Part shown: one piece after another, positions 1,542 to 31,989 of the stretch | Layout of the letters: every line of letters starts with the position of its first letter | How positions within the stretch are numbered: the stretch's first letter is position 1 | DNA from: Squalus acanthias | Lineage: Eukaryota | NCBI GenBank assembly: GCA_030390025.1 | Contig: CM059449.1 | Coordinates: 33,852,001 to 33,916,000 of the forward strand | DNA length: 64,000 nucleotides | Direction: 5' to 3' | Made by a program: the position numbers and the translations under genes | The notes under the pieces: generated by a model | The model's input: the letters and a program-made list of their open reading frames with translations, nothing else | What the model was told of the DNA's origin: nothing | Databases searched by the model: none

Positions 1542-2305
1542 GGCCCAAAAATTCGGCTGAATACGGGAGAGTACGAAATGTGTACTCTCGCGTATTCGGT
1601 CCCGAAGTGCAGGTTTCCTGTATGCACTGCGCATGCGCGGGAAACCGGCACTTCCGGTATGGCGATGGGGGCGGTTCCTAAGTGAACCGCGTGCGCACGA
1701 CAGGCTGTGCGCACGCAGCACACTTAGGTTTTTTTTCAGGTTTCAACGCGAAGGTAAGTATGGAATATTTTACACATGAAGAAAGGAGGCGTAAGTCCCC
1801 CTTTTAACAAGGTAAGTATTTAATTAAGTATTATTTTAAATTTTGTTCAACAAGTTTATCTTTTTTAGAGACTTTAAAGAAAGGTAAGTTTATTTTTATA
1901 ACATTTAAAAAGAATTTAAATTTTTTCAAAAATTTAAATTTTTGTTTAAAGTGGATAATTTATTTAACTATAGTTATTTTATTAATGTGATGGGTATTTA
2001 AAAAAATTATTTGAGGTTTAGCTGTTCTTTTGGGGGCAATTTGTATTCATAGTTTTGACAGTTCTCCTGTCAAATCTATGAATGTAAGATGGTGTGCTGC
2101 CATTGGCTCTAACTGGCCCACGTGATCCCAGAGGTCGCATCGAATTAACTGCGCCTCTGGGACACGCACACACTGCGCGCCGGCACCAGGGAGAGAGCCA
2201 GGAACTGAAGTTCGTGTGGGCCAAAACCATAAAGGTAGGCGCGGAGTGCGATATCGCGGGGGATCCTTACCCCCGCGGCAACCATCGAACTCCAATTTCT
2301 GGGCT
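1542..2305 (+). mobile_element. Harbinger-type MITE, ~760 bp structured family (copy 1)
   Basis: TIRs ggcccaaaaatt / aatttctgggct, GC-rich ends and an AT-rich core. Colinear with the copies at 8235, 18418, 26355 and 43832. Confidence 0.85.
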
Positions 2306-2810: not shown

Positions 2811-3320
2811 GGCCCAGAAATTATGCTCCCTGGCTTCCCGCGGGTGCAATGATCGCGCGCGCACCTAACTACCGCGCCTGCCGTTGACCTCTGGGCCGAC
2901 GGGGACTTCAGCTCCTGGGCGCCCTGCAGCTACTTTGAACAAAAATTAAAATTTTTGACAAAATTAAAAATAAACTTACCTTTCTTTAAAGTATCTAAAA
3001 AAGAAAAAACTGTTGAAAATGTTTTTAAATTGTAATTAATTAACACTTACCTTGTTAAAAACGGGTCTTGCGCCTCCTTTTTAAAATCGCAGCTTCTTCC
3101 ATACTTACCTTCCCGGAGAAACCTGAAAAAAAACCTAAGGTCACTGCGTGCGCGCAGCCTCTCCCGCGCACGCGGTTTACCTCTGAACCACTCCGTTCAT
3201 GAAAGCGGAAGTTCCGGTTTCCCGCGCATGCGCAGTGCATGCAGGAAACCGGCACTTCAGGTGGACTGACTGGTGAGTACACAGTGCGTACTCACCCGGC
3301 AAGTGCCTAATTTCTGGCCC
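2811..3320 (-). mobile_element. Harbinger-type MITE, internally deleted copy
   Basis: TIRs ggcccagaaatt / aatttctggccc. Carries the GAGTAC..GTACTC hairpin and three acttacct motifs. Confidence 0.8.
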
Positions 3321-3670
3321 ATATGAAATAACTTTGTCCAGTTGTGAATGAGAATAAAGACTCAAATGGACTGGACCTGTTTCTGGTTGGGGCGGATTTC
3401 ACTTCTTAAAAAAGGTAGTTACTTTAGGATATTCAAGGTCAGAGTGATCAACGGAACTAGTTTTGTTCGCCTAGATGAGTCGGGGAGTAATTTCTCAGAT
3501 TATTTTACCCAAATTAGCCTGTTTTTACCTGTTTTTTCGCCTGTACCATTAGATCATAAAGTCCCAGAAATTCGCTCTTCGGCTTGACGCGGCGGTAAGA
3601 ATCGCGCGCGATATTACCTACCGCGTCTGCCGTTCTGCTTTGCCCCCACAGGAACTTCGGATTTTTTGAA

Positions 3671-3791
3671 GCGCAGTCCCGGGCAGCGTCTGACGTCACA
3701 CCGCCCTGGAGCGCAGCGTGCGCGGAGCCTCCCGAGCGGAGGGCAGTGAAGACACGCCCTTCGAAGTAGCATTTGCATAGGCCACGCCCCC
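3671..3791 (+). promoter_or_regulatory. Putative inward promoter of the H1 Myb-like gene
   Basis: CRE tgacgtca (3671), octamer atttgcat (3771) and KLF/SP box ggccacgccccc. The CRE and GC box recur at the equivalent end of H2 (~31465-31570) and H4 (~39505-39605). Confidence 0.45.
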
Positions 3792-4058
3792 ATTTTTTTT
3801 TTCATGTTGGCAAGCTTTGGAAATAGCAAAACAGGATTTCCAGCATCTGTAGTATTTTGCTATCAAGAGTAATTTGTCTCTTTGTATTTAAATGCATGTT
3901 TTGCTAATTTTTACAAACTTTTAAAGACTTTTACATGAATTGGAAGAATTTTAAACAGTTTTAAAGAGATTTGAATTAATTTAAATAGTTTTAAAAGCCC
4001 TGAAAGCATTTTTTTCATTCAATTTATTTTATTTAATCAGCAAAGTGAAATCGCTGGA

Positions 4059-5529
4059 ATGAGCACAATTCACATTATCAAAAGAACTCACAATTTCAGT
4101 GACGATGATTTCAGCACACTCCTCAACGAGGTTGAGGCGAAGTGCCTGTGGATTATTGGAACTGAGAAGTCGAAGGCGCCGCGAAAAGGCCAGATGTTAG
4201 CCTGGTCTGAGGTTGCCCAGGCTGTCAGCGCAAATTCCACCATTCCACGGACAGCGGAACAATGCCGCAAGAAATTCAGTGATTTATTGCAAACTGTCAA
4301 GGTTTGTATAGTTATTACAAAAGTCAACTGTAAAATGTCTTTAAATTTAACTGAACTAGTTTAAAAAATATATATGTATGTGTTTGTTTACTCAAGTGAC
4401 TTCATTGCAGGCACAGGAGCTTGCCATAATTTTTTATGGCTTTTGGGGCCAGCTCAGGGTCATCCATTGTGCTCTTATCTTGATTCCACTGCTTTGAGTT
4501 GTTTAGTGAGTTAAACAAAACCACTGTCTGCAAAGCTGTGTCCCAATGCACTTTGGGTGTAATCTGCAGAAAAAGCTGACATTTCATGACATTTTATATT
4601 TTTTGTTTTCATTTTAGAGTAAAACTGCTCACAACGCCAGAGAACGTGCACTGACAGGCGGTGGTGTTGTCACGTTAAGGGCTTTATCCGAACATGAGGA
4701 AAGGGTCGAGCATCTGTTTGGATTTAGTAGCGGCTGCCCCTTTAATGGTGTACGAAGCAACACTGGTATGCATAACCGTGAGTTGCTCTGGCCAGCTATA
4801 TGTTTAAAAATGTTAGATGTGTGTTGAATATCAGCTTCTGTGATGTGGCACATTATGCTTTACCTTTGCAAATGTTTACTGTTTCCTTTCCACAAGTGTA
4901 CAGCAGACTTCTCACACACGGGATGAGCAGTGCGTTGAGTCTGCAGCCGCAGAGGGCATTGGGGAAGGCGTTGCTGAGGCAATGGGAGCAGTGAGTGAGG
5001 TGGTGGTGGTGGAGGAGCAGGAGCAACTTGTTGATGTAGTGGAAGAGGAGGGTATGGAATCTGGGTTGCTGGAGAGGTCCTCTCCATCTCCTGGCCCCTC
5101 TGGCTCTGTGCCAGACAGACACCAGCTTGATACTGCAGTGCATTGGGGAGAAGCAGATATACATGCAACAGAACAGAATGAGTTACAAGGTCAGATGCAG
5201 CATCTTGAAGGGTTGAGGGACTCGATGTGTTCTCTTACTGAGAAGAAAGTTGACTCTCTTGCCTCGATCAGGCAGGGAATTGATTCTATTGGCATGTCAC
5301 TTAATCAAATAAATGAGTCTGTCATTGGACTCTTGCAGAAACCAGATGTGGGAATGGCGCTTCATCAAATAAATGAGTCTCTCGTTGGACTCTTGCATAT
5401 GCTTAAACCACTTTCTGCTGCCATTACTTTGACTCCCGCAGAACCGCCCTTACCTGCTCCCAGCGCAGAAACAGTGCGGGCCCAAGAGCCAGCTGCTCCT
5501 GCAGTTGTGATGCAAGCAAACGTTGCCTT

Positions 5530-5561
<32 letters not shown>

Positions 5562-5668
5562 CCTGTCAGGAGGCAATTGCTGAAGGGCAAGAGATGGCAC
5601 ACAGGGCCCTTTCAAGTCGCAGCACAGGGCTCCGGTCACGGGGAGCGATAAAGCGCAGGAGACGGTAG
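4059..5668 (+). pseudogene. H1 Myb/SANT-like DNA-binding protein, ~387 aa; exons 4059-4301, 4618-4765, 4896-5668
   Basis: NFSDDD..W.EVAQAVS..RTAEQCRKKFSDL SANT/trihelix motif, TGGG motif in exon 2, acidic, coiled-coil and polyQ tail. The exon-3 acceptor reads AA where H2 has AG. Confidence 0.8.
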
Positions 5669-6176
5669 GGTGTCACCTTTTCCACAAAGCACATCCATTG
5701 ACCCTCAGGCACAGATGCGAGGGGGCAAATAGTTCAATTGTTTAATTTTTCGTTTTATTTAAATGTTAAATGATTTCATTGCTTTTTTATTGAAATATAT
5801 ATTTGTGACTGAAAGTGTATGTAACGTTTCATTTAAAAAGTATAGCCACTAGTCACTTTTCCTTTTGCAAAAAAAATTAACATTACAACTGTTTTAAATT
5901 TAGAAAATAGCTAGTTTCCATCTTGAATGTCTTTATTGCACTAAGAAAACAAAAATGTCACTGTAAACTGTTTACAAATTTTATTCTAAACTATTTATGT
6001 TTACGAATGTTTGAAAAGTAGAAAATAGCTAGTTAACATTTAAAAGTTATAAACTATGTACATCAACACTGAACCTCAGAAGTCTTTGATGCTGCAATAA
6101 AAGTTCACTGTTTCACTTTAAATTGTGTCTGTTCCTTTCTTTGCCTTGCTGGGGGAGGGGGAGGTACAAGGCGACC

Positions 6177-7324
6177 CTACCTGATGAAGGTGTTGGCTAC
6201 CAGCTGCTCCCGAGCAGCCTTACTTTCAGCTGCACTTGGCTCGTCCCTATCAGGCCTTCCCACAGGCACATTGGCATCGTCCACGTCCTCCATTTCAGCA
6301 GGTAGTTCCATGCAGCGTTAAGGGTCAGTCCTTCCCGCAGGGCAAAGTTATGCAAAGCACAACAGGCCACCACAATCTTTGCCACTTTCAGGGGAGAATA
6401 CTGCAAGGTCTTCCCTGACCTGTCCAGGCACCTGAAGCGTGATTTCCGAACTCCGATTGTCCTCTCCACCACGTGCCATGTGGGCACGTATGCCTAGTTG
6501 TATCTCTCCTGAGCCTCATTATTGGTCTTGCAGTAGGGAGTCAGCAGCCATGGTCTCAGCGGGTATCCCTTGTCGCCCAATATCCATGCGGATCCTGGAG
6601 GCAATGCGTTGAGGGCGCCATATAAGTTCGAGTTACGGAGGACGAAGGAGTCATGATTACTTCCCCGGTTACTTGCATTCACATTTAGGATCGTGGGGTG
6701 CGCATCGCAGACTATCATGACATTCAATGAATGAAACCCCTTCCTTTTGATGAATGTAACAGGTGCATCCACTGGTGCCTTCAATGCAACATGGGTTCCA
6801 TCGACGGCCCCAATCACTTTGGGGATTCTAGCAATGGTATAAAATGCAAGGCCCATCTCCTTTTGATGGCGAGTGGACAAGTCAAAGTTAATGAACTCTG
6901 AAGCCCTACGGAAAATGGCATCTGTGACCTGGTGAATGCAGGCCCTCGCAGCATTCTTGGAGATGTTGGTAATGTCACCGGTGCTTGCCTGAAATGACCC
7001 ACGTGCAAAGAAGTTCACTGCTGTGGTTACCTCCATGCTCACTGTCAAGGCAGTACGGGTCTTCGAGCGTGTTTGAAGGTCCTCCTTTAACATGTCATGT
7101 AGTCGGCCGATTGCCTCTTTACTGAAGCGCAGCCTCCTCACACAGAACTCCTCCAACAGCATCTCAAATGACAGCCTCTCCCTGTACACTCTCTGGGGTG
7201 GGTAGTATTTTCTCCTTCTCAGGAGGAGACGGTTTTGGTTCCTACGTCTGTCTTGTCGACTGGCGTCTAAAATTCTCTGATACAAAATCGCACAGAGGAC
7301 CAGGACAGCATTCTCAAAGGGCAT
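6177..7324 (-). pseudogene. H1 Harbinger DDE transposase (HARBI1-like), disabled
   Basis: Motifs [24 protein letters not shown] and VERTIG..K.RFRCL. Premature TAG at 6494-6496 and a frameshift near 6312. Confidence 0.92.
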
Positions 7325-8234
7325 GTTTCTCCCTCACAGGCTTCCTCTTTAAACACATTAAGTAGTTGTAAGGAAAAAATGGAAAGAGTTGTTAAAGTAA
7401 TTTTAATAAAGTGAGTGGCTAGAAAATCACGTCGGGCTATGGTGGGAAAGATGCGGTATCGGATTGGGAACACGTCTACCAGCCTGATGAATATCACGGC
7501 CCGAGATGAGTTTCCAAAACTGTGACATTTTCAGAAAGTCATACATACATACTTACTTAAAGGAATATAATTGATGATCATTTTCTTTTTTTTAAACTTT
7601 TGGAAATGTAAATAATTCATTTTTAAACAGTCATTTTCATATTTAAGAAAGAAAGCTAATTCAATAGGCCTTGTACACACCGAGAGTTGCTAGACTACTC
7701 CAAATGGTCAAAATCCGTTTTAATTTTTTTTTACAATTCCAAACTTTTTCAGACTTTATGAAATAAACTTTGCTGACTTTCAGAATTAAAAATGTTCACT
7801 TTAGTAGCCCCACTGCTGAAAGATTTCTTCTTCCTGCTCGTTACGGAGCTTTCCAAGATGGTTTACTCAAGCTTTTTACAAGCGTAGTTGCCGCGATCTT
7901 ACCCGCACTAAACCCATTCATAAAAATAGCGAAGTTCAATACGCACGCGCTGCCTCTCCGGCGCACGCGATTCACCTACGAACCCTTTCCTTCAGGCTAC
8001 CAGAAGTTCAGGTTTCCCGCGCATGCGCCGTGCATGCAGGAAACCGGCATTTCAGGATGCCTTACGGGTGAGTACACACCGCGTACTCACCCGAAAAGGG
8101 CCGAATTTCAGCCCCATTGTTTTGGCAGGGTGGAGAGTGCAAATATTGTGATACACTAGTATCACAATCGTGTGGGAAAGTCGAAATGGACCAGAACGTC
8201 TTCGCCTGTCCGTCATTGTTCGTTTGTTCATATT

Positions 8235-8996
8235 GGGCCAAAAATTCGGCCCTTGCCGGGTGAGTACGCACTGTATACTCACCCATAAGGCGTCCTGAAG
8301 TGCCGGTTTCCTGCATGCACTGCGCATGCGCGGAAAACCGGAACTTCCGCTCTGGTGAAGGGAGGTTCATAGGTGAACCGCGTGCACGGCAGAGGCTGCC
8401 CGCACGCAGCAAACTTAGTTTTTTTTTCAGGTTTCTACGGGAGGGTAAGTATTGAAGAACCTGCGCTTTTAAAAAGGAGGCGCAGGACCCGTTTTCAACA
8501 AGGTAAATAGTTAATTAATTACAATTGAAACATTTTTTCAACAGGTTTATCTTTTTTAGATACTTTAAAGAAAGGTAAGTTTATTTTTAGCACTGTTAAA
8601 AAGTATTTTAATTTTTTCAAAAATTTTAATTTTTGTTTAAAGTAGTTAATTTATTTAACTTGTAGTTATTTTATAAATGTGATGGTTTTTTAAAATGTAT
8701 TTTAAGTTTAGCTGTTCTTTTGGGGCCGATTTCAATTCATAGATTTGACAGGTCTTCCTGTCGAATCTATGAATGAAAGTTGGTCTGCTGCCATTGGCTC
8801 TCCATGGCCGACGTGATCCTAGAGGATGCATCGCACTAACTACGCCCCTGGGATACGCAAGCACTGTGCGCCGGCACTTGCAGCAGGCCCAGGAGCTGAC
8901 GTTCCCGTGGGCCCAGAGGTCAACGGCAGGCGCATTAGGTAAGTGCGCGCACAATCCTTACCCCCACGGCAAGCCGGAGAGGCGAATTTCAGGGCC
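8235..8996 (+). mobile_element. Harbinger-type MITE, structured family
   Basis: TIRs gggccaaaaattcg / cgaatttcagggcc, flanks att/atg, same hairpin series as copy 1. Confidence 0.85.
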
Positions 8997-12511: not shown

Positions 12512-15333
12512 ATGGGATGGCCAATCATTGTGCAGATAGAAGAAATTTTCTACCCGATTCTTGCAGCGATTGGTGTTCCTGGTAAGTCAATGTGATCAAT
12601 TGTTATTTGCCCTTACTGATGGTTAACAGTATCATTGCTCTTGCCTTCTAGCAGCATAGGGGTAGATCTTGACTTTGTGCGATGGTGTGAAGCAGGTGAC
12701 GGGGAATGAGCCGTCTGCTTCACATCTCTCCTGGTTTTTATTTCCATTTACTTCAATTGAACTGAAAATCGAGAAATGGAAAACCGATTGCTGATTCGCT
12801 ATCGCCCGTTTTCACCATCGCACTAAGTCATAATCTGCCCCAATATCTATTTATGTTCCGATGTGTTGACGCAGTCAGTAATTGCAGCAACCGTTACATT
12901 AAAGTCAATGGAAGGGGAATCGGACGAGGTGTATAATGGAAGGTGAATTGGAGATCCCTCGTTTTACACCATTGCTCAAAGTTCAGATTACACCCCGTCT
13001 GATTTTATTTTCCATTGGGTGGATTTTCGCTCTTAGTTACGAACGGAAAACAGACAATAGCGCATTGGCCACCCATTTTACAACTCGCTCGACTCTCGGT
13101 TACATTGAAGTCAGTGGACATGAAAGTCCACGGCTGTGTAAAACAGGCAACTGCTCGCTACAAACCGGTTTCTGCAGGGCAGTATAGGTGAAAAATCACC
13201 TCTAGTGAAGTCTATGGGAAGTACAATCAGGTGGGGTGTAAAACTGGCCGGGTCAATTTCCCAGTCGGCAAATTTAGTTAACATTTATCCAAAGTCTCAT
13301 CCACAAAATGAGGAGATGCTGCATCGTAATCTATGGCACTACCCCTGTACGGGACAGTCTCGGTCCAACAATAACAATCCTACACTGGGTGTCCATGAGG
13401 CTCTGTGGGTCACAGTAGCAGTGAAATTGTTTACCACAACAGTCTCTCACCTCATGGCCTGGCATAACCCTCACTGCTCCATTACTGTCCAGCCAGTAGA
13501 CCCACCCTGTTTTAATGTTGAGTGTTGAGAAATGTGCGTCAGGAACACTATCAACATTCGATGAGAGGCAAATTTGTTAACGTTGTTTTTGGGATGGGGG
13601 TGACGCTGTCAAGGTCATATTTATTACCCAGTACTAGTTTCCCCGCAAAGGGGCTATTGGGTAACATCTTGGTAGTGATTTCAATTAGGGTTATTTCAAC
13701 TTTGGGCATTAGTGAAAAAATGAGCAATGTCGAATTGACCGCTCATTAGGTGCTCGGCCGATTTCCCTTCCATTGACTCCAATGGATGGATAATTGGAAG
13801 TGGTGTATAAAGGGGGGCTAATTTGATATCGTCCATTTTACACTCTGGCCGAAATTTAAAATGAACCCCAATGTATTTGGCAATTCTAGCAGATGGATTA
13901 ATACACTTTGAATCCTCACGTTATTAGGGTTCAGAGCATTAACAATCTGAATATTTGTAATAAAGGTATTTGGTCTGGTCCACGCCAATGATGTAGTGTA
14001 AACACAGCTCGGCCCATTTTCCATTCCAGCGAATCAGTAAAAAGCAAGATGGGGAGACGTGTATAGCGGACCACGGATCGACATTCGCCTGTTTCACACT
14101 ATCGCCGCAGTCAACATTATTCTGAATGTGTGTTCTCTGAATTGGTGGTGACGACCTTTGTAACTAAGTGGATATAAACTGATGCATTCTGGATAAAATC
14201 ACTTCATGCTCCATCAGGTTATTGTTTCCTTGAAATAATTCCAGAATAAATTCGATAGTGTGTGACCATTCTGTAATCGTGTTGACAGGATTTGCGCGTT
14301 TACACGCTGTGGAGAAAGCAAGAATTGAGCGACAGGATTAGACAAATCGGTGTGATTTTACACACGCTGCTCATCCCTGTCTTAAGCCTACAATGAGTCA
14401 CATTCGATTATTTTTTTCTCTCTTGCAGCTAATTTATTGACGATTGTGATTCTCTCCCGGGGAAAGTGCGGTCTCTCCAAATGCATCACTCGCTATCTGA
14501 TTGCCATGGCAATCGCGGATCTCCTGGTCATGATATTTGATGTGATACTGTATGCGATCTACGATATTTATTTCCCATATTCATTCCTGAACTATACTTC
14601 CAGCTGCAGAATCAATCTCTCTCTGATTTATTGTGTCATTGACTGCTCAGTCTGGTTAACAGTGACTTTCACCTTTGATCGCTTTGTGGCCATTTGTTGC
14701 AGGAATTTGAGAACTAAATATTGTAGCGAAAGAACCGCAGCTACCGTTATAGTGACAGTTTGTGGACTGAGCTTTTTAGAAAATATTCCTATTTATTTTA
14801 TGTGTGAACCCCGGGAAATAATTGACAATACCTGGTGGTTCTGCACTGTTCAGTCTAGCTTCTATACCTCTCCCGTCTGGGTAGCCTATCTCTGGTTAGA
14901 CAGTATTTTAACCCCATTTGCTCCATTTGTTTTGATTTTACTCCTCAATGCTTTGACCATCAGACATATTTTAGCAGCTAATATAATCCGCAGGAGAATG
15001 CAAGGCAGCAATGGTGAGATTCACAATGATCCAGAGATGAGGAATCGAAGAAAGTCGATCATCTTACTGCTCGCTATATCTGGTAATTTTATACTGTTGT
15101 GGATGTTAACTCTTATTAATTACGTTTGTATACAAATTACGGACTCGCAGTTTTTTCAGACAGATTATACCGAGCCTTTCACCATCATGGAAAACACAGG
15201 GTATTTGCTGCAGCGGCTCAGTTCTTGCACCAACACCATTATTTATGCAGTGGCCCAGACCAAATTCAGAGAGGAGTTAATGAACACGGTTAAAAGTCCC
15301 TTCACTCTAATTATTAAGTTAATTAAACATTGA
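12512..15333 (+). CDS. Intact class A orphan GPCR, GPR139/GPR142-like, 324 aa; exons 12512-12581 and 14429-15333
   Basis: MGWPIIVQIEEIFYPILAAIGVP, then G|GTAAGT ... TTGCAG|CT in phase. Seven hydrophobic segments, ADL in TM2, FDRFVAIC, NTIIY, no stops. Confidence 0.9.
12659..12841. mobile_element. Old short palindromic MITE in the GPCR intron
   Basis: TIRs ggggtagat / atctgcccc, arms tgcgatggtg / caccatcgca, centre ttccatttacttcaattgaa. Confidence 0.65.
13688..13869. mobile_element. Old short palindromic MITE in the GPCR intron
   Basis: gggttatttc ... aaaatgaacccc with centre ttccattgactccaatgga. Relatives at ~12850-13000, 13016-13203 and 13960-14125. Confidence 0.55.
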
Positions 15334-18417: not shown

Positions 18418-19153
18418 GGCCCAAAAATTAGTGAGGGAGCCTTCGTGCGAGGGTAAGGCTTCCCCGCGATCTCTCACTGCGCGTTGGCTTTTTCAGTCCG
18501 AGCTCGCACGAACTTGATGTTCTGGACAGCAGCTGTGCAGGGCTTCCGTATCCCACAGGCGCAGTTAATTCGTGCGAGCTGTGGGATCACGTGACTCAGT
18601 TAGAGCCAATGGCAGCACACCATCTTCATTCATAGCTTTCACATAAGTGCTGTGAAAGCTATGAATCTATACCCCCCAAAAGAACAGCTAAACCTCAATT
18701 AAATTAAAAAAACCATCACATTAATAAAATAAGTATAGTTAAATAAATTAACCATTTCAAACAAAAAATTAAATTTTTGAAAAAATTTAAAATCTTTTAA
18801 AAAGTTATAAAAATAAACTTACCTGTCTTTAAAGTCTCTAAAAAAGATATATCTGTTAAAAAAAAATCAAAATAATACTTAATTAACTACTTACCTTGTT
18901 AAAAGAGGGTCTTACGCCTCCTTTCTTTATGTCTAAAATGTTCCACGCTTACCTGCGCGTTCAAAGCACTAAGTGCACTGCGTGCGCGCAGCCTGTAGCG
19001 CGCACGCGTATCACCGAGGAACCGCCCCCTTTTGAATTCACCAAGTGCCGGTGTTCAGCGCATGCGCAGTGCATGCAGAATACCAGCAATTGAGACAGAA
19101 TACGCGAGAGTACACAGTGCGTACTCTCGCGTAGCGGCACTAATTTTTGAGCC
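18418..19153 (-). mobile_element. Harbinger-type MITE, structured family, AAT TSD
   Basis: aat|ggcccaaaaattagtg ... cactaatttttgagcc|aat. Confidence 0.9.
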
Positions 19154-20545: not shown

Positions 20546-20903
20546 ATGGGGGAGAAATTCAGTCACGCCCCATTTGGGGCGCAATTATCGGCCATGCGCA
20601 AAGATTAGCGCCTGGCGCTAATTATCGCCACTGACTGCAAACTTGACTTACCCCTGGAGGTGATTGGAGCGCTAAATCAGGCGCTAGACACCTGTCTTAA
20701 GGCGAAAAGGCCGAGGAGCAAGGCGCTAACTCAGAGCACGGGCGCAGCGCAGGTGCTGTCAGTTAGCGATGGAACACAGACACACTGGCGCCAGACAGTT
20801 CTTAAAGGGGAGGGTCGATCTTGCACTCCAGCCACACCCTGCTCATTGGAGTCTTGAATCTCGGCCTGGAGAGACCTGTGCCTAAATCTTCCAGCCAAGG
20901 ACT

Positions 20904-22810
20904 ATGGAGAGGGTGAGAGAACGAGCTCAGAGCTTCAGCGAGCGGGCCTTGGATGCTCTGGTTGGCGCGGTGGAGCGCAGAAGATCTATACTCTTGCCTG
21001 AGTGTGGCAGGAGGCCTTTGCCGCGCGAGTACAGAAGAGTGTGGAGGGAGGTGGCTCAGAGCGTCTCCTGCAGGAGCATGGTGCCGAGGACCGATGTACA
21101 ATGTCGAAAAAAGTTCAACGACCTCACTCGGGTCGTCAGGGTGAGTGGCTTTTTTTCAATACCTCTCCATCCCTCCATCTCAACCTCACTCTATGGCCAG
21201 AGGGTCTTAAAACCCCAATGTACAACACTCATCCAACACCTATGGTCCTCTCATGAAACACACACACACATTCCACACTTTGCATACAGTAAGGGCTATT
21301 CACCTATGGGAGGCACATCAGGCAAGACCATGGCGGCATACAGTAAGGGCTATTCACCTATGGGAGGCACATCAGACAAGAACATGGCTGCATACAGTAA
21401 GGGCTATTCAACTATGGGAGGCACATCAGGCAAGACCATGGCTGCATACAGTAAGGGCTATTCACCTATGGGAGGCACATCAGGCAAGACCATGGCTGTA
21501 TATTTACTCAGACGCCGTCCTTTTTCTTGCAGGCCAAGCTATCTCATAATAGGAGACAGCAGCAACGGATGGGTGGAGGGCGGCCTCAGCTGCAACCCCT
21601 CAGCGATCTTGAGGCGCGCGTCCAGAGGATTGTGGCAAGCCGGGTGATCGGTCCCGTCGCCACTGGAGACGCCGACCCCGTTCTGGACAGCAATGGTAAG
21701 GTCATCACCTTTTTGTCCTCTGTCCTTCCACTTGTCCCTCACAACACCAGCCTTTGACACTTTCAATCCAACTTACTAAATCGCTGCACTTATTCCTCCC
21801 TTACTGCCACCCTGTCCTCACGCTAAAGCCACTCTTGTACCTCCCTGCTTTCAGATGGTGATTCACCAGCTGAGGAGACGGGCCTTCAAGCTGCCAGTGG
21901 GAGTGAAGCTTCAGGCGAGGAGGAAGATGAAGGCGGAGCATCAGTGCCACCCTCTCCCGAGGAAGTCCATGCCCACACTGGGAACACGCCTTCCCTGGAG
22001 GGGAGCAGGGGGGAAGGTTCTGATGAGGGTGAAGCTCCAGGACCCAGCGGGCTGCAGCAACGCCATGGGGGTAGGGAAGAACGGGGGCCTTCTCCCCGGA
22101 GGGAGAGTATGCCAGCGACTCCTACTGCAATGGACGCAGAGGAGGAGCGGCTCATCACTGAAATGAACACCCAGGCGGTGGACATGCACACTGAGCTCAT
22201 GGGTGCATTGGGAAGGGTGCCCGAATGCATTGAATCACTGGCAAGGAGTGTGGAGCACTTCGCTGTAGCACAGGCGGATGCCACACTAAAGCTTAGTGCT
22301 GCAATTCAATCTCAGACTGCTCTCATGCAGACTCAGATTGAGGCCACGCGAGCACTGACTGCTGCCATCCTCGATGGTTCGTACACATTTCCCTGGGGCT
22401 CTCACCGCGCCGCAGCAGGCCAGCAATCTGTGCTCCAGCAGATTGCTCCGGATGCTGAAGTGCTGCCCCGTAGGAGTGCCAGTGTGTCGTTCGAGCAGAG
22501 AGTTGCTGTCCTCTCTCAAGATGACAGCATTCCTGCTGCCACCACTGTCACTTCTCCACTGCACTTGCCACCGCCTGTACGACAGACTGCTGCCGCCCAT
22601 GCAGAGTTGGTGCAGTCTGCAGCCGGGCCCTCCAGGCCCAGAACTGGTCGAGCCCGTCCTTCAAGGGCACCTGCAGTCTCAGATTCTGACAATCAGCAGC
22701 CTTCCACCAGCTTTGCTGCAGCCACTGAGGTCTCATTACGGAGGAGCAGTAGGGTAAGAAGGGGGGAAGTGCGCAAGGGAAGGAGATCACCCTCGAAGGG
22801 CAAAAAGTAG
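20904..22810 (+). CDS. H3 Myb/SANT-like protein, apparently intact, 451 aa; exons 20904-21140, 21533-21695, 21855-22810
   Basis: FSERALDALV..W.EVA..RT..QCRKKFNDL. GT-AG introns in phases 0 and 1 give an open 1356-nt frame. Confidence 0.8.
21282..21497 (+). repeat. 54-bp minisatellite x4 in intron 1 of the H3 Myb-like gene
   Basis: Unit gcatacagtaagggctattcacctatgggaggcacatcaggcaagaccatggct at 21282, 21336, 21390 and 21444. Confidence 0.95.
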
Positions 22811-23109
22811 GAGGTGTGACAAAATGTTGGTCTTTTTTTTATTAAAGGCTAAGTTTCGTGGTCAAACTTTTGGACATTATCTCCAGGTTATGAGAACCAG
22901 TTCTGTTAATGACTGTGTTTTTGTGTTTCTTTCTATTAGTTTGTCATGAGGAAATGACAAACACAGAGTTTGTGAAATAAATAAGTTTTTGTATTCAAAA
23001 TATACATGTTTGGTGTTTGGAATCATTAGTGCTTTGGCAGGCTTAGGGGTTGCGTGTTGGTTTCATTCATGTTGTTCTCAATGGCAGAAGCCATTTCCAC
23101 AGCAGGGGC

Positions 23110-23208
23110 CTAGAAGCGGCTTGCTATCAGCCGTTGACGGACGGCCCTTGCAGTTTCAACATTGTGGGCCGCCCTCACACCTTGGTGCTGCTGATGATCA
23201 TCTTCCTC

Positions 23209-23239
<31 letters not shown>

Positions 23240-24263
23240 GGTGGTGCTCCAAGGCCTGGTAGCATTGGCTGGGTCCTGAGGATTGCCATGTTATGCAGCA
23301 TGCAGCACACAACTACGAAGTTGGAAACTCGCTCAGGCGAGTACTGCAGGGCTCCTCCAGAATGGTCCAGACAGCGGAACCGTTGCTTGAGCACGCCGAT
23401 TGTGTGCTCAACGATGTTCCTGGTAGCTTGATGGCTCTCGTTGTACCGCAGCTCAGCAGGGGTGTTGGGCGTACGGAGCAGTGTCATCAGCCAGGTGCTC
23501 AGTGGATACCCCTTGTCCCCGAGAAGCCAACCAACTGGCTGATGCGGTGCCTCGAAAAGTTCTGCCACAGTAGTCTGGCGCAGGATGAAAGCATCGTGGC
23601 AACTGCCAGGATAGTGGGCATTGACAGCGAGTATCAGCTGTCTGTGGTCACAGACCAACTGAACATTCAAGGAATGGAACCCCTTTCTGTTCCGGAAATC
23701 CTCAGCATTCTCATGCGGAGCACGCAAAGCGTGCAGTCAATGGCGCCCTGCACCATGGGGAAGCCCGCTATCCTCGCAAAGCCCAGAGCGCGTTCATGCT
23801 GCTTGTCTGGGGTCATGGGGAAAGAGATGTACTCTCGTCTCCTTTTAAAGAGGGCATTTGTGACCTGACGGATGCAGCAATGCACCGCAAACTGGGAGAT
23901 ATTGGCGATGTCCCCAGCAGCAGATTGAAATGAGCCAGTAGCATAAAAGTTCAGAGCCACTGTGATCTTCACTGCCACCGACAGAGACGTCCTGGACCTC
24001 AGTTGAGGCTGCAGATCTGGCTGCAGCAGGTGGCAGAGCTCAGTGACCACCTCCTTGCTGAAGCGCAGCCTTCGCAAACACTGCTCCTCAGACATATGAA
24101 TGTAGGAGAGCTGTTCACAATATACCCTGGGAGGGTAAGCTCTCCTGTACAGACGCCTGTTGGCCCTCCTCCGTCTGGCCATCATTGCCACTCTCTCTCT
24201 GCGTCTCTGTGTCCTCCGATTCAGCTGGCACAGGACGACGCCCCTAATCAGTGCAGCCCCCAT
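23110..24263 (-). pseudogene. H3 Harbinger transposase, frameshifted
   Basis: GAIDCT, then a small deletion near 23730 removes HV and shifts the frame. [19 protein letters not shown] and VEHTIG..KQRFRCL are retained. Confidence 0.92.
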
Positions 24264-25225
24264 TGTCTCTTAGCAAGCAAAGTTATGAAGGCCAAAAACC
24301 AAAGTACCTGCCAAGTTATGATCAGTAGCCAAAACTACCTCACACAGCGTTGACTCAATGCAGAATTCTCTCTTTCTCTCTCTCCGGATCTCTCTCTCTC
24401 TCTCAGAACGAGTGGTGCAAAAATGTCAACCACAGAGAAAGACAGGAAGAGGCCCCCTTTAAATAGCGCCCCCCCCCCCCCCAGCCCCACAGCGACTGAT
24501 AGCTTTCCAGTATTCCGGTCGTTGAATGCGCCAGGCGGAAAGGATGGGGGCGCCACTCAATTTCCGCTCCGGGGCGCCACAAGGACGTTGCACCCTCGTA
24601 TGACGTCAAGATCTGCGTGCGCAGGAGATCGCGGCGATAAAGTTTAGCGCCACCGCAAAATGTCTAGTTAAGTTCACGAGCGGCGCAAACATCGCTGCGC
24701 CCAGGCACTAGCTGCTTTGCGCCCCATTAGCGCCCTCTTAAGGCGCTAACGGGAGGCGCAACCAACTGAATTTTTCTCCCATTGACTTTAACTGACAACT
24801 GACCTAGTTGCCCTCGACTGCAGCCTCGAATGTCTTCTAGTAGCAGTTTTTAATACCAAAAACTTGGCAACTCGCCCACAGCATTCATGTCCCGAACCGT
24901 GTGAATAGCGCTGTTTTCTCTCTCTCACTTCCCTATCTGTTTTGACGCTTGGTGAACCAAGGCCTGAAGAAGTCCTTGTTTTTACACCTGAAGGTTGACT
25001 CCTTGTTCTCATAGAATTTTCAGGTCTCATCTTTTGGAGAAAAACAACAGCTTGCAAGCGCATTATTTATTTTACAAATGTTTAGCCAAGAAGTCTCTTT
25101 CCCTCAAAGCCTGTTGGTACATCAAATTTGGTCACTTTAGGTTCAGTCAAGTTTACTGTGATTGTTGTGTTCTTACAGAGTCCACCCTCAAGTGGCTGTG
25201 TACCTGAATTTAAGGTCACAGGCAC

Positions 25226-26354: not shown

Positions 26355-27102
26355 GGCCCGAAAATTAGACCTAATACGCGAGAGTACGCACTGTGTACTC
26401 TCGCGTTTTAGGTCTCCAATTGCCGGTTTTCAGCATGCACTGCGCATGCGCGGGAAACCGGCAATTCGTGAGCTCAAAAGGGGGCGGTTCCTAAGTGAAC
26501 CACGTGCGCGCTACAGGCTGCGCGCACGCAGTGCACTTAGTGCTTTGAACGCGCAGGTAAGCATGGAAGATTTTACACATAAAGAAAGGTGGCGTAAGAC
26601 CCTCTTTAAACAAGGTAAATAGTTAATTAAGTATTATTTTAATTTTTTTTCAACAAGTTTATCTTTTTTAGAGACTTTAAAGAAAGGTAAGTTTATTTTT
26701 ATAACTTTTAAAAAGATTTTACATTTTTTCAAAAATTTTAATTTTTGTTTAAAGTGGTTAATTTATTTAAATATAGTTATTTTATTATTGTGATTTTTTT
26801 AAATTTAATTGAGGTTTAGCTGTTCCTTTGGGGGTAAGTTGTATTCATAGCTTTGACAGTTGTCCTGTCAAAACAATGAATGAAAGATGGTGTGCTGCCA
26901 TTGGCTCTAACTGAATCACGTGATCCCACAGCACGCACGAACTAACTGCGTCTGTGGGTCACGCAAGCACTGCACAGCTGCATGTGGGACTGGCCTTGAA
27001 ACTAAAGTTCGTGTGAGCCCGGAGGGAAAAGGGAGGAGCGCACTGAGATTTCGCGGGGAAGCCTTACCCCCGCAGGAACGCTCCGTGTTTAATTTCTGGG
27101 CC
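26355..27102 (+). mobile_element. Harbinger-type MITE, structured family
   Basis: aat|ggcccgaaaatta ... taatttctgggcc. It truncates the env remnant and abuts H2. Confidence 0.88.
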
Positions 27103-27895
27103 AAATAATGTCCGGAAAATTAGACCTAATACGCGAGAGTACGCACTGTGTACTCTCGCGTATTGGGTCTCGAATTGCCGGTTTCCTGCATGCACTGCGC
27201 ATGCGCGGGAAACCGGCACTTCCTGTGGCTTCACCGAAAGGTGTGTCCGTGGTATCGGGTGCGCCGGAGAGTCTGCGCGTGCGTCAAGAACTTGGATTTT
27301 TTTTATCAATGGTGGAAGTGTGTGTCAGCTCCTAGCAATTACACATGTAAAAACCAGGGATAAACCATTTTCGATAGCTCCGGAGACAGCAGGAGGAAGA
27401 AATCTTTTAGCAGTGGGGCTACTTAAGTGAGCTTTTGTAAATCTGAAAGCCAGCAAAGTTTATTTAATTAAGTTTTAGGTAAGTTTGCAATTTTTTAAAA
27501 AGTTTAAAAACGGGTTTGGAGTAGTATAGCAACTGTGGGTGTGTACAAGGCATGTTGATTAAGGTTTCTATCATAAATGTGAAAATGACTGTTTAAAAAT
27601 GAACTATTTACATTTCAAAAAGTTTTAAAGAAGAAAATGATCATCAATGATATTCCTCTAAGTAAGTAAGTATGTATGTATGTATGTATGCATTAATTTA
27701 TGAAAATGTTACAGTTCTGGAAAATCATCTCGGGCCGTGAGGCGGGTAGACGTGTTCCCAATCCGATAGCGCACGTTTCCCACCATAGCCCGACCTGATT
27801 TTATAGCCACTCACTTTACTAAAGTTACTTTAACAACTATTTCCATTTTTTCATTAAAACTTTCTGTTTAAAGAGGAAGCCTGTGAGGGAGAAAG

Positions 27896-29044
27896 ATGCG
27901 CTTTCAGAATCAAGTCCTGTTCCTCTGTGGGATTTTGAATCAGAGAATTTTAGACGCCAGGCGACAAAACAGACGGAGGAACCAAGCCCGTCCCCTCCTG
28001 AGAAGGAGAAACTACTACCCACAAAAGAGAGTGTACAGGGAGAGGCTGTCATTTGAGATGCTGTCGGAGGAGTTGTGTGTGAGGAGGCTGCACTTCAGTA
28101 AAGAGTCAATCGGCCGAATCTGTGACATGTTAAAGGAGGACCTTCAAACACGCTCGAAGAGCCGCACTGCATTGTCAGTGAGCATGAAGGTAACCACAGC
28201 ACTGAACTTCTTTGGAAGTGGGACTTTTCAGGCAAGCACCGGTGACATTTCCAACATATCCAAGAATGCTGCGAGGGCCAGCATTCACCAGGTAAGAGAA
28301 GCCATTTTCCGTAGGGCTTCAAAGTTCATTAACTATGACTTGTCCGCTCGCCATCAAAAGGAGATGGCCCTTGCATTTCATAACATTGCTGGATTCCCCA
28401 AAGTGATTGGGGCCGTCGATGGAACCCATGTTGCATTGAAGGCACCAGGGGTTCCACCTGTGACATTTATCAACAGGAAGGGGTTTCATTCATTGAATGT
28501 CCAGATTGTCTGTGATGCGCATCTCAGGATCCTAAATGTGAATGCAAGTAACCGGGGAAGTAATCATGACTCCTTCGTCCTCCGTAACTCGAACTGATAT
28601 GGCGCCCTCAACGCATTGCCTCCAGGATCTGCATGGATATTGGGCGACAAGGGCTACCCGCTAAGACCATGGCTGATGACTCCCTACCGCAAGACCAATA
28701 ATGAGGCTCAGGAGAGATACAACCAGGCACACGTGTCCACACGGCAAGTGGTGGATTGGACAATAGGAGTTCTGAAATCACGCTTCCGGTGCCTGGACAG
28801 GTCAGGGGGGACCTTGCAGTATTCTCCTCTGAAAGTGGCAAAGATTGTGGTGGTCTGTTGTGCTTTGCGTAACTTTGCCCTGCGGGAAGGACTGACCCTT
28901 AACGCTGCAGAGGAACTACCTGCTGAAATGGAGGACGTGGACAATGCTAATGAGCCTGTGGGAAGGCCTGATGGGGAAGTCCCAACTGCTGCTCAAAGTA
29001 AGGCTGTTCGGGAGCAGCTGGTAGCCAACACCTTCACAAGGTAG
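27896..29044 (+). pseudogene. H2 Harbinger transposase (382 codons) with one nonsense codon
   Basis: A single frame throughout. TGA at 28595-28597 where H1 has TTA, and VVD in place of the conserved VVE. Confidence 0.92.
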
Positions 29045-29599
29045 TGTCGCCTTGTACCTCCCCCTCCCCTCCCCCTCCCCATCCCTCTCCCTCTCCCCCA
29101 GCAAGGCAAATAAAGGAACAGACACAATTTAAAGTGAAACAGTGCTCTTTTATTGCAGCATTATAGATTTCTGAGGTTCAGTGTTGATGTACATAGTTTA
29201 TAACTTTTCAATGTTAACTAGCTACTTTTCAACTTTGCAAACATTCGTAAACAGAAATAGGTTAGAATAAAATTTGTAAACAGTTTTCAGTGACTTTTTT
29301 GCTTCGTTACTGCAATAAAGACATTCAAGATGGAAAATAACTCTTTCCTAAATGTAAACAGTTTTAACGTTCAATTTTTTTTGCAAATAAACAATTTGAA
29401 TTTTTTTAAAGTGAATAGAGGCTGTACTTTTTCAATGAAAAGGTTACTTACACTTTCAGTGACAAATATATATTTCAATAAAAAAACAATGAAAACATGT
29501 AACTTTTAAATAAAACGAAAAATAAAACAATTGAAAGATTTACACGCTGGAAACTATGCCTGAGGGTCAATGGATGTGCATTGTGGAAAATGTGACACC

Positions 29600-31226
29600 C
29601 TACTGTCTCCTGCACTTTCCCGCTCCTCGTGACCGGTGCCCTGTGCTGCGACTTGAAACGGCCCTGTTTGCCGTCTCTTGCCCTTCAGCAATTGCCTCCT
29701 GACAGGGTTGCTGCTGCTGCTGCTGCTGCTGCAAGGCAATGTTTGCTTGCACCACCACAGGCGGAGCAGCTGGCTCTTGGACCTGCACTGTTTCTGTGCT
29801 GGGAGCAGGTAAGGTTGGTTCTGCGGGAGTCACAGTAATGGCAGCAGAAATTATTTGCAAGAGTCCAGCAAGAGACTCATTCATTTTATTAAGCTCCATT
29901 CCCAAATCTGGTTTCTGCAAGAGTCCAACAAGAGACTCATTTATTTTCTTAAGCTCCATTCCCACATTTTGTCCAACAAGAGACTCATTTATTTTCTTAA
30001 GCTCCATTCCCACATTTTGACCAATGATAGACTCTTTCAATTGATTAAATGACATGCACATACAATCCATTCCCTGCTTGACCGAGGCAAGACACTCAAC
30101 TTGTTTCTCTGTAAGAGAACACATCGATTGCCTCAACCCTTCAAGATGGTGGATGTGACCTTGTAACTCCTGTTCTGTTGCATGTATATCTGCATGTATA
30201 TCTGTTTCTCCCACATGCACTGCAGTATCAAGCTGCTGTCTGTCTGGCACAGAGCCAGAGGGGCTTGGAGATGGAGAGGACCTCTCCAGCAACCCAGATT
30301 CCAGACCCTCCAATTCCAGTTCAGCAACAATTTCCTGTTGCTGCTCCTCCACCACCACCACACTCGCATCTCCCACAGGCTCAACATGCCCTTCACCAAT
30401 GACCTCTTCGGCTGCAGACTCAACGCACTGCTCATCCCGTGACTGAGAAGTCTGCTGTAAACCTATGGAAAGGAAACAGTAAAGATTAGCAAAGGTAAAG
30501 CATGATGTGCCACATCACAGAAGCTGATATTCAGCACACATCACCTCTGTCGATTTGTTCAGTTTCAAAGGGGCAGCCGCGAAGATATCCAAATAGATGC
30601 TCGAGCCTTTCCTCATGTTCGGTTAAAGCCCTTAACGTGACAACACCACCGCCTGTCAGTGCACGTTCTCTGGCGTTGTGCGCAGTTTTAGTCTTAAATT
30701 AAAACATAAAATATGAAATGTCATGAAATGTAAGGATTTTTACACCAAAACTGCATTGGCACGCACTCAGTTAACTCAGTAAACAACTCAAAGCAGTGGA
30801 ATCAAGATAACATCAGCATTTTATGACCCTAGCCTGGCTACAAAAGCCATAAAAATTTATGGCAGCATCTTGTGACTTCAGTTAACTCAGCTTAGCAAAC
30901 AAACACTATTTAAAAGTATTTCATATTAAATGTTAAGACATTTTAACATTGACATTTGTTATAACTATACAAACCTTGAGCGTTCGCAATAAATCACTGA
31001 ATTTCTTGCGACATTGTTCTGCTGTACGTGGAATGGTCGAGTTTGTGGTCACACTTTGAGCAACCTCTTTCCACGCTACCATTTGGCCTTTTCGAGGCGG
31101 TTTGGACTTCTCAGTTCCAATGATCCTTAACCGCTTCGCGTTGACCTCGTCGAGGCGTGTGCGGAGATCATCGTCACTGAAATTTTGAGTTCTTTTGATA
31201 AATTGGATATTGCTGATAGCAGCCAT
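29600..31226 (-). CDS. H2 Myb/SANT-like protein, apparently intact, 420 aa; exons 31226-30975, 30692-30545, 30462-29600
   Basis: GT-AG introns, exon 2 is 148 nt as in H1, and the spliced frame is an open 1263 nt. Confidence 0.72.
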
Positions 31227-31989
31227 TTCCGTTTGCTGATTAAATAAAGTAAAATCAATGCAAAAAATGATTTCACGGCTTTTAAAACTATTTAAATTAC
31301 TTTAAATCTCTTTACAACTGTTTAAAATTATTCCAATTCATCTAAAAATCTTTAAAAGTTTTCAAAACATGCATTTAAATGCAACTTACTTTAACTGCCA
31401 CGTCTCCCGTTGTTAGAAATCTCCCTGCAACTGCTTTGAAACTCCATTGAAGTGAAAAAAAAATTGGGGGCGTGGCCTATGGTAATGGCGCCTTCCAGGG
31501 CGTGTCTTCACTGGACATCGCACGCGATGAAACGCGCACGCAGCGCTGCAGGGCGGTGTGACGTCAGACACTGCCATGCAGTGCAGCTCAGAAAATTCCA
31601 AGTTCGTGTGTAGGAAAAGGCAAACGGCAGACGCGGTATGTAATACCGCGCCGGTTCCTTACCCCCGCGGGAAGCATCGCACTCTAATTTCTGGGCCAAT
31701 TTTTTGACAGGCGTTGTCGGATCTGAACGAAAAATAAGATTTTTCAAGTAAATTAGACATATCTATTGCTTATCCTGATCTATTTCCAACACCGGTTTCC
31801 TTAACATATCTTTCAAGCCCTACACCCGTCAGTAACACATGTAGTTAACTATTGAAACAGCCATCTATTCCCAGCAAAGGATCAATTTTGTAAATGAGGC
31901 ACCGGGCGTATGATTCTTTCAATGACAAGTTCCTGCCTGACCTGCCATTTTGTTCCCAAATTGAGAATTCACAACTTTATTTCACAATT

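What the first reader, a model, noticed from the sequence alone, without database searches (positions are those of the whole stretch)
1628..1890. The same MITEs carry promoter motifs followed by three conserved 5' splice sites and no downstream exon
Seen: an NRF1-type tgcgcatgcgc (1628) and an ETS-type cacttccgg (1649), then AG|GTAAGT at 1754, 1812 and 1884. The triple donor recurs at 8445/8503/8575 and 26557/26615/26687, and as acttacc-type motifs in the - copies (~2975/3046/3103, ~18818/18890/18948, ~44247/44319/44387). The donors persist inside an otherwise drifting AT-rich core. Known: these match the U1 consensus, and promoter-proximal U1 sites boost transcription and suppress premature polyadenylation. 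Inference: a mobile promoter and first-exon cassette that could splice into neighbouring acceptors, such as GPCR exon 2 (14429) or transposon exons.
Basis: partly seen in the sequence, partly recalled or inferred. Interest (0 to 1): 0.7.

Follow-up and report, generated by a model that had tools for sequence, protein, structure and literature searches.

The report
Harbinger mini-transposon keeping promoter and donors
A very abundant non-coding jumping element carries three real splice-donor signals behind promoter-like DNA, likely inherited from the spliced front end of its parent's cutting-enzyme gene; inserted copies lose them like any other DNA, so they likely serve the copies that keep jumping rather than the host.

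Summary
The motifs are real and at the stated places. They lie in a ~765-bp non-autonomous PIF/Harbinger element (at least 21,854 copies). Its donor-bearing end matches the transposase-side end of full-length Harbingers in the window. RNA contigs from two studies show that full-length leader spliced from an AG|GTAAGT donor to an acceptor 22 nt before the transposase ATG; the MITE lacks that acceptor and the gene. No junction from a MITE donor was seen (tables partly cut). After insertion the donors are not protected: private changes 0.90% vs 0.86% in flanks; genome-wide, donor 3's G is lost 199 times vs 85 for a control G; CpGs decay fourfold faster. The AT-rich core is not drifting, and the GPCR has its own first exon. 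What remains odd: on branches leading to subfamilies the three GGTAAG never changed (0 changes vs ~11 expected; p about 0.01) and CpGs escaped decay. So the constraint likely acts on source copies, not the host. The scan noted this family before on other pieces of this genome.

The parts
1542..2305 (+). M1: non-autonomous PIF/Harbinger element (MITE), subfamily F1
   Evidence: 12-bp TIRs; 3-bp AWT-type target duplication exact in 19 of 29 family copies; ends shared with transposase+Myb elements A1/A2
1565..1594 (+). Subterminal palindrome 1, shared with full-length elements; candidate site for the Myb-like protein (inferred)
   Evidence: few lineage-level changes (4 internal vs 34 tip, p=0.010)
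1603..1654 (+). Subterminal palindrome 2; contains the NRF1-type motif (1628-1638) and most of the ETS-type motif (1649-1657)
   Evidence: 3 internal vs 32 tip changes, p=0.007; 87-95% identical to full-length elements over nt 61-120 for best partners
1753..1758 (+). Donor 1 (GT at 1754), 212 nt from the TIR; aligned with a GTAAG in full-length leaders
   Evidence: absent from subfamily F7
1811..1816 (+). Donor 2 (GT at 1812)
   Evidence: absent from F7 and from full-length family A
1883..1888 (+). Donor 3 (GT at 1884), 342 nt from the TIR; present in all five subfamilies; best alignment puts it 24 nt upstream of the donor that full-length elements use
2045..2081 (+). Internal palindrome whose two arms change together between subfamilies
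   Evidence: 8 of 15 pairs show two or more Watson-Crick types
2102..2124 (-). CCAAT box and E-box facing inward from the right end; probable remnant of a second (Myb-side) promoter (inferred; parent not found)
   Evidence: kept in all five subfamilies
2811..3320 (-). M6: internally deleted copy with all three donors
3561..8115 (.). A1: decayed full-length Harbinger (Myb/SANT gene on +, from 4059; DDE transposase on -, from 7324); its transposase-side end matches the MITE's donor end
   Evidence: Pfam PF13873 E 4e-13, PF13359 E 1e-21
8235..8996 (+). M2: MITE copy, subfamily F2; fourth co-oriented donor at 8939
12512..12581 (+). Own coding exon 1 of the GPCR gene (donor at 12582), in frame with exon 2 at 14429-15333
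   Evidence: joined reading gives an open 324-aa protein; nearest solved relative GPR139, E 1.8e-7
18418..19153 (-). M4: MITE copy, F3-like
26355..27102 (+). M3: MITE copy, subfamily F3, 7 bp upstream of A2
27110..31697 (+). A2: full-length Harbinger (transposase on +, ATG 27896; Myb/SANT gene on -)
27479..27873 (+). GT..AG intron in the untranslated leader of the transposase gene, spliced in RNA contigs of family members
   Evidence: joint 27473>27872 with three letters between, runs X3 (side 73) and X5 (side 28), two studies
43830..44605 (-). M5: MITE copy, subfamily F5
61860..62368 (-). M7: deleted copy of subfamily F7, no intact donor

Best explanation
The promoter-like motifs and three donors are the front end of an abundant non-coding PIF/Harbinger transposon, likely descended from the promoter and spliced leader of a transposase gene, and likely kept by selection among the source copies that go on jumping, not by the host. 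Shown: the element has Harbinger ends and target duplications; its donor end is the transposase-side end; full-length relatives splice their leader from such a donor; the MITE lacks the acceptor and both genes; inserted copies lose donors at background rate or faster and lose CpGs fourfold faster; lineages that founded subfamilies lost neither. Inferred: source copies stay unmethylated and are transcribed inward from the CpG-rich end; U1 pairing at the donors would shield that short transcript from early termination even without splicing; the open state would make those copies better substrates for transposase and Myb-like protein supplied in trans; most new insertions are methylated and decay.
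For: Family and polarity. Spliced leader in full-length elements, with Myb introns as positive control (CT..AC joints 30692-30975, 30460-30543); no intron-less DNA version among 45 of 50 leaders that could be measured. No protection after insertion: private changes 17/1899 at donor 8-mers vs 108/12585 in flanks; donor-3 G to C/T 199 vs control G 85 on 21,854 intact; donor-2 G to A/T 43 vs about 42 estimated for a control G. Constraint on source lineages: in a tree of 108 copies, 0 internal and 16 tip changes at the 18 GGTAAG sites vs 382 and 932 elsewhere, Fisher p 0.002-0.018 over four clade-size cut-offs, random hexamer triples p 0.001-0.006; donors 1+2 alone p=0.024. CpG transitions 1.09x the non-CpG rate on internal branches, 4.17x at tips, p=2.5e-9. 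GTRAG is enriched on the sense strand in all five subfamilies (3-7 observed in one copy each vs 0.9-1.5 in shuffles). A sense 5' splice site blocks Restrictor without needing splicing (PMC12211998, section 6 read).
Against: No transcription start or splice from any MITE copy was shown; only contigs were available. Beyond nt 120 the MITE is only 43-72% identical to the full-length family sampled, close to a null of 40-68%, donor 3 aligns 24 nt from the used donor, and donor 2 has no counterpart, so descent of each donor is not proven; the direct parent was not found. Subfamily F7 spread without donors 1 and 2. 12-15% of all 6-nt windows also have no internal change, and donor 3 sits in a 23-nt invariant block longer than U1 needs. 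23 of the 108 copies were picked by an exact donor-3 pattern. Internal-branch changes could come from error-prone copying during transposition, which would also flatten the CpG ratio. Tip changes at donors (0.89 per site) were below background (1.54) in the tree count. Poly(A)-signal depletion on the sense strand was not significant.
Confidence: 0.5

Rival explanations
1. Pure relic: the motifs are carried along from a coding parent with no role in the MITE; their invariance reflects common descent, chance in a generally conserved element, or repeated copying from a full-length family not sampled here, where the donors are functional.
For: Leader splicing in full-length elements explains why donors exist there. 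F7 lacks two of three. 64% of non-CpG columns have no internal change. The first ~115 bp of MITE subfamilies track different full-length subfamilies, so exchange with coding elements does occur.
Against: Five subfamilies 60-88% alike are collinear over the whole ~760 bp, so much divergence arose without coding capacity; all three GGTAAG of the element escaped change in that time; donor 1 is invariant inside the most variable stretch.
Confidence: 0.23
2. GGTAAG is a double-stranded DNA site for the element's Myb/SANT (trihelix-type) protein or a host factor needed for transposition, and only looks like a U1 site.
For: The Myb-like protein of Harbinger3_DR binds a subterminal 9-bp motif (PMC9710019, passage). 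An inward-facing GGTAAG also stands ~35 nt inside the other end in three subfamilies and in A1/A2. Invariance around donor 3 extends beyond the U1 footprint. Plant trihelix factors bind GGTAA-like motifs (recalled, not checked).
Against: The sites are 210-345 nt inside, on one strand, the transcribed one; tolerated changes fall at -2 and +6 and include GTAAG/GTGAG swaps; in full-length leaders loss of the used donor goes with a stronger upstream one (-1 G in 14 of 20 leaders that lost it, 0 of 27 that kept it; probably one event). The palindromes at 1565-1654 are better candidates for that protein.
Confidence: 0.18
3. One reading: a mobile promoter and first-exon cassette used by the host, splicing into neighbouring acceptors such as the GPCR's exon 2.
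For: CpG-rich end (observed/expected 1.33 vs 0.64 for the window), strong co-oriented donors, more than 20,000 copies, so single co-opted copies are likely somewhere. An LTR element does this in Drosophila (10.1101/2025.10.13.681963, search listing only).
Against: No protection of donors in inserted copies; methylation-type CpG decay; no joint or loose end at donors among those shown, and contigs bridge each donor unspliced; the GPCR has its own coding exon 1.
Confidence: 0.07

Closest known systems
Non-autonomous PIF/Harbinger elements (Tourist-like MITEs): rice mPing with Ping/Pong; zebrafish Harbinger3N_DR (PMC2836001, PMC9710019, passages)
   Same: Short TIRs, 3-bp A/T-rich target duplication, no ORF, high copy number, full-length partners with DDE transposase and Myb/SANT gene in the same genome.
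   Different: Longer (~765 bp); five subfamilies keep one internal layout with a CpG-rich promoter-like end, co-oriented donors and palindromes; evidence here of lineage-level constraint on internal donor sites.
Short non-autonomous variants of Harbinger-Snek in sea kraits (PMC8437027, passages) and MITE-like derivatives of Harbinger-1M_cIno (PMC13668399, passages)
   Same: Mass expansion of non-coding derivatives beside two-gene and single-gene forms in one animal genome.
   Different: The passages read give no promoter or splice-donor anatomy; the C. inopinata MITEs keep about 80-100 bp of recognisable ends, here the whole interior is conserved between subfamilies.
Promoter-proximal 5' splice sites that block Restrictor (ZC3H4/WDR82) termination (PMC12211998, abstract and section 6)
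   Same: Strong sense-strand donors a short way behind a CpG-rich promoter-like region, with no acceptor needed.
   Different: Shown in mammalian cells for host genes and reporters; here an analogy for a transposon, untested.
Transposons whose promoter and donor splice into host genes, e.g. Drosophila Springer LTR (10.1101/2025.10.13.681963, search listing only)
   Same: Promoter followed by a donor inside a mobile element.
   Different: There chimeric transcripts are reported; none was seen here, and this is a DNA transposon.

Membership tests
Non-autonomous PIF/Harbinger (Tourist-like MITE) | Short terminal inverted repeats | tested here: met
   12-bp TIRs at both ends of 30 of 30 loci
Non-autonomous PIF/Harbinger (Tourist-like MITE) | 3-bp A/T-rich target-site duplication | tested here: met
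   Exact in 19 of 29 loci, AAT or ATT in 17 of these; 6 more differ only AAT/ATT
Non-autonomous PIF/Harbinger (Tourist-like MITE) | No coding capacity, high copy number | tested here: met
   No transposase or Myb match inside copies; 21,854 exact matches to a 27-mer, and all of the first 30 lie in such elements
Non-autonomous PIF/Harbinger (Tourist-like MITE) | Ends shared with a two-gene partner (DDE_Tnp_4 transposase + Myb/SANT) | tested here: met
   Pfam matches in A1/A2; first ~115 bp up to 96.6% identical to full-length ends, right ~97 bp 76-81%
Non-autonomous PIF/Harbinger (Tourist-like MITE) | Mobilised in trans by the partner's proteins | not testable with these tools
   Inferred from shared ends and dispersed copies with their own target duplications
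Host-co-opted mobile promoter / first exon | Transcription starts inside copies | not testable with these tools
   Only assembled contigs were offered; they cannot show starts
Host-co-opted mobile promoter / first exon | Junctions from the donors to downstream exons | tested here: inconclusive
   None in the one joint and 24 of 255 loose ends shown, nor in 15 of 31 joints and 24 of 331 loose ends shown
Host-co-opted mobile promoter / first exon | Donors conserved above flanks in inserted copies | tested here: not met
   0.90% vs 0.86% private changes; 199 vs 85 genome-wide at donor 3; 43 vs about 42 at donor 2
Known structured RNA family (Rfam) | Match at gathering score | tested here: not met
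   3 chance-level matches, E 0.2-0.7, all far below cut-off

The most novel reading that the evidence does not exclude
A coding-dead cut-and-paste transposon lineage has been selected, over five subfamilies, to remain a tiny transcription unit: a CpG-island-like promoter plus stacked U1 sites with no acceptor, which keeps source copies unmethylated, transcribed and open, and so lets them win access to transposase in trans. MITE success would then depend on staying transcribed, not only on terminal binding sites.
Probability: 0.3. Interest if true: 0.72.

Novelty: new member of a known kind. Interest (0 to 1): 0.37.

Why it matters
As a non-autonomous Harbinger it is ordinary. The point of interest is the split between source and inserted copies: donors and CpGs are held on the branches that founded subfamilies and lost freely afterwards. 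If that reflects a need to stay transcribed, it gives a direct test of why some MITE lineages amplify to tens of thousands of copies, and shows a transposon using U1 protection without splicing. It also puts more than 20,000 strong cryptic donors into this genome, raw material for rare co-option.

Tried and rejected
1) Splicing of MITE donors to GPCR exon 2: rejected on anatomy, the gene has its own coding exon 1; not tested by RNA at that locus. 2) Internal splicing (donor 1 to the poly-T AG at 1868, or 14-15-nt micro-exons before donors 1 and 3): no such joint in four runs on 1500-2350, where the table held a single unrelated joint. 3) Contig depth along the MITE was flat across the donors, but the tool says depth cannot rank parts, so it is not used. 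4) U1-PAS asymmetry: AATAAA is nearly absent on the sense strand (0-0.3 per copy vs 1.4-3.2 antisense) but not beyond composition-matched shuffles (p 0.13-0.50). 5) Search for the direct coding parent: 50 transposase loci, 30 Myb-domain loci and all flanks gave only end matches. 6) Donor-2 count at face value (66 mutants vs 594 controls) looks like ninefold conservation, but 93 of the first 100 controls are one amplified variant, so only the A/T classes were compared. 7) Whole-element consensus folding kept 35 pairs only, weakened by truncated copies; Rfam gave nothing. 8) Rows dropped: 13 of 110 loci before and one more as segmental or same-site duplicates; one search kept 123 full-length copies after removing shared flanks, and the 15 F7 copies served only as outgroup. 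9) The papers on Harbinger3_DR binding (Sinzelle 2008) and coelacanth Harbinger promoters (Smith 2012) were not held; both are known here only through citing passages. Paper searches listed nothing describing this family; listings only. No supplementary files were read.

Full report
Observation. AGGTAAGT occurs 13 times in the window against 2.16 expected: 11 are the donors of six MITE copies, one is a fourth donor near the far end of M2, one is the donor of a full-length element. All 18 sites in the six copies keep GT; 11 read AG|GTAAGT. Three claims fail. The AT-rich core is the best-kept part between subfamilies, not a drifting one (0.80-0.88 of columns invariant at 1862-1981 vs 0.64 overall). 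The ETS-type 9-mer is broken in 19 of 20 copies of subfamily F3. Subfamily F7 lacks donors 1 and 2 in 15 of 15 copies (all). The names NRF1 and ETS are recalled consensus matches; both motifs lie in one 52-bp palindrome (1603-1654) that full-length elements share.

What the element is. The window lies in a 3.7-Gb genome; earlier scan notes call it a shark, which I did not test. M1 (1542-2305) has 12-bp TIRs and a 3-bp AWT target duplication (exact in 19 of 29 loci). Two 4.6-kb elements in the window, A1 and A2, carry a DDE_Tnp_4 transposase and a Myb/SANT gene facing each other, the two-gene layout of PIF/Harbinger (PMC9710019, PMC2836001, passages). The MITE's donor end is their transposase-side end: 77-97% identity over the first ~115 bp across 50 transposase loci. 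One 27-mer around donor 3 has 21,854 exact matches, and the first 30 all lie in MITE-type copies, none in a coding element. Five subfamilies, 60-88% alike, are collinear over ~760 bp.

Where the donors come from. Contigs of four public runs (RNA by guess; two studies) laid on M3 plus A2 show a joint that removes 27479-27873, GT..AG, from an AG|GTAAGT donor 369 nt inside the TIR to an acceptor 22 nt before the transposase ATG (runs X3 and X5); two Myb introns appear as controls. None of 45 measurable leaders of 50 lacks that intron as DNA. So in full-length elements this region is the promoter and non-coding first exon of the transposase gene, and it also holds several donor-like sites. The MITE has donors at 212, 270 and 342 nt and no acceptor or ORF behind them. 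The homology is loose: past nt 120 identity falls to 43-72%, near a 40-68% null; the donor-3 region aligns better than all 300 shuffles with A2 (92 vs at most 79), barely with a second copy (78 vs 75) and not with A3; the best register puts donor 3 24 nt upstream of the used donor. Donor 1 aligns with a GTAAG kept in most leaders; donor 2 has no counterpart. The direct parent was not found.

Are the donors used or kept by the host? Not on this evidence. Private substitutions in 81 copies: 17 of 1899 at donor 8-mers, 108 of 12,585 in flanks. Genome-wide, donor 3's G is changed to C or T in 199 copies, a control G five bases upstream in 85; context effects or selection against cryptic donors could explain the excess. 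For donor 2, G to A or T is seen 43 times against about 42 estimated for a control G (7 of the first 100 of 594; the other 93 are one amplified variant). CpG transitions at tips run 4.17 times the non-CpG rate, as in methylated DNA. RNA contigs cover the whole MITE and bridge each donor unspliced; no joint or loose end at a donor is among the rows shown (24 of 255 and 24 of 331 loose ends, 15 of 31 joints), which is weak because raw reads were not available.

What is left unexplained by a relic. In a tree of 108 copies of four subfamilies, the 18 GGTAAG positions show 0 changes on internal branches and 16 at tips, against 382 and 932 at 608 other non-CpG sites (Fisher p 0.002-0.018 by cut-off; random hexamer triples p 0.001-0.006). 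Leaving out donor 3, on which 23 copies were selected, p=0.024. The two left palindromes show the same pattern (p 0.010 and 0.007). CpG transitions on internal branches run at only 1.09 times the non-CpG rate (p=2.5e-9 against tips), and the left 210 bp keep CpG observed/expected of 1.07-1.28 in these four subfamilies (0.80 in F7). GTRAG is enriched on the sense strand in every subfamily. Cautions: 12-15% of all hexamers are equally invariant; F7 spread without two donors; tip changes at donors were also below background in this count (0.89 vs 1.54 per site); error-prone copying during transposition could flatten the CpG ratio.

Mechanism. I commit, at 0.5, to constraint on source copies. Shown: identity, polarity, spliced leader in the partner, decay after insertion, stasis on founding branches. 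Inferred: source copies are unmethylated and transcribed inward; U1 at the donors would protect the nascent RNA, as a sense 5' splice site blocks Restrictor without splicing in mammalian cells (PMC12211998, abstract and section 6); open chromatin would favour mobilisation in trans. Rivals: pure relic or refreshment from an unsampled parent (0.23); a DNA site for the Myb-like protein (0.18; that protein binds a subterminal 9-bp motif in Harbinger3_DR, PMC9710019 passage); host-used cassette (0.07 at family level, though single co-opted copies among more than 20,000 are likely).

Known and new. It is a member of the non-autonomous PIF/Harbinger elements by every feature I could test, comparable to mPing, the short Harbinger-Snek variants (PMC8437027, passages) and the C. 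inopinata derivatives (PMC13668399, passages). It fails the one testable criterion for a host-co-opted first exon. A fish survey found no Harbingers in the elephant shark (PMC9179366, passages); this genome gave 88,739 first-look candidates for one transposase. Six paper searches (listings only) showed no description of this family. The scan has noted the same family or anatomy on other pieces of this genome; those notes are not independent support. Added here are the spliced leader junction, the genome-wide decay counts and the source-versus-tip contrast. Interest 0.37.

Noticed in passing
window 1542-2305 and all subfamilies (e.g. 1565-1594, 1603-1654, 2045-2081, 2125-2159): The element is a string of palindromes (fold z -12.8 against 20 shuffles) whose two arms change together between subfamilies: 13 of 35 consensus pairs show two or more Watson-Crick types vs 1-8 in slid controls; the 2045-2081 stem is rewritten yet stays perfect in several subfamilies. 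Selection on structure or template-switch copying; not separated.
   Followed up: partly
window 1542-1660, 26355-26470; loci L038, L058: The first ~115 bp of each MITE subfamily match a different full-length subfamily best (F3 with L058 0.93-0.95, F1 with L038 0.92-0.93) and identity then drops to about 0.5-0.65: MITE ends may be refreshed from currently active elements.
   Followed up: partly
window 26355-27110; L045, L067, L071, L074, L080: MITE sequence lies directly against or close to the transposase-side end in 6 of 50 full-length loci, the window's own included; possible insertion preference next to relatives.
   Followed up: no
L031-L080, leader region: Donor turnover in full-length leaders: the spliced donor is lost in 20 of 47 scored leaders, and 14 of these have gained a G at -1 of a GTGAG site about 50 nt upstream; none of 27 with the donor intact has. 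A (GTAA)(GTAT)n run lies inside the intron.
   Followed up: partly
window 8939; subfamilies F2, F5, F7, F3 at about nt 680-710: A fourth same-strand GTRAG 60-80 nt from the far end (18/21, 14/18, 8/15 and 26/31 copies).
   Followed up: partly
window 1729-1742, 1859-1868: Poly-T acceptor-like motifs 14-15 nt upstream of donors 1 and 3 (micro-exon-like spacing); one is deleted in F3, the other altered in F5; no joint seen.
   Followed up: partly
window 12512-15333, 35736-36284, 48144-48764, 58694-61854: Cluster of two-exon GPR139-like receptor genes; the first has an open 324-aa frame, others look broken or partial; an extra donor-like site lies at 12490, just before the first ATG.
   Followed up: partly
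window 36285-39615: A third Harbinger whose transposase jumps from its start to its end near 37225 (middle missing) while the Myb gene remains; its left end resembles subfamily F7 (77% over 147 bp).
   Followed up: no
G000 C26 near 34.7, 36.4-36.5 and 38.0-38.3 Mb, and C1054: Near-identical copies of several window elements with shared context: the region appears segmentally duplicated.
   Followed up: no
window 20886-24350 and 40236-41221: Two further, more distant Harbinger families; the first has a 54-bp tandem repeat at 21227-21550 behind its Myb exon.
   Followed up: no
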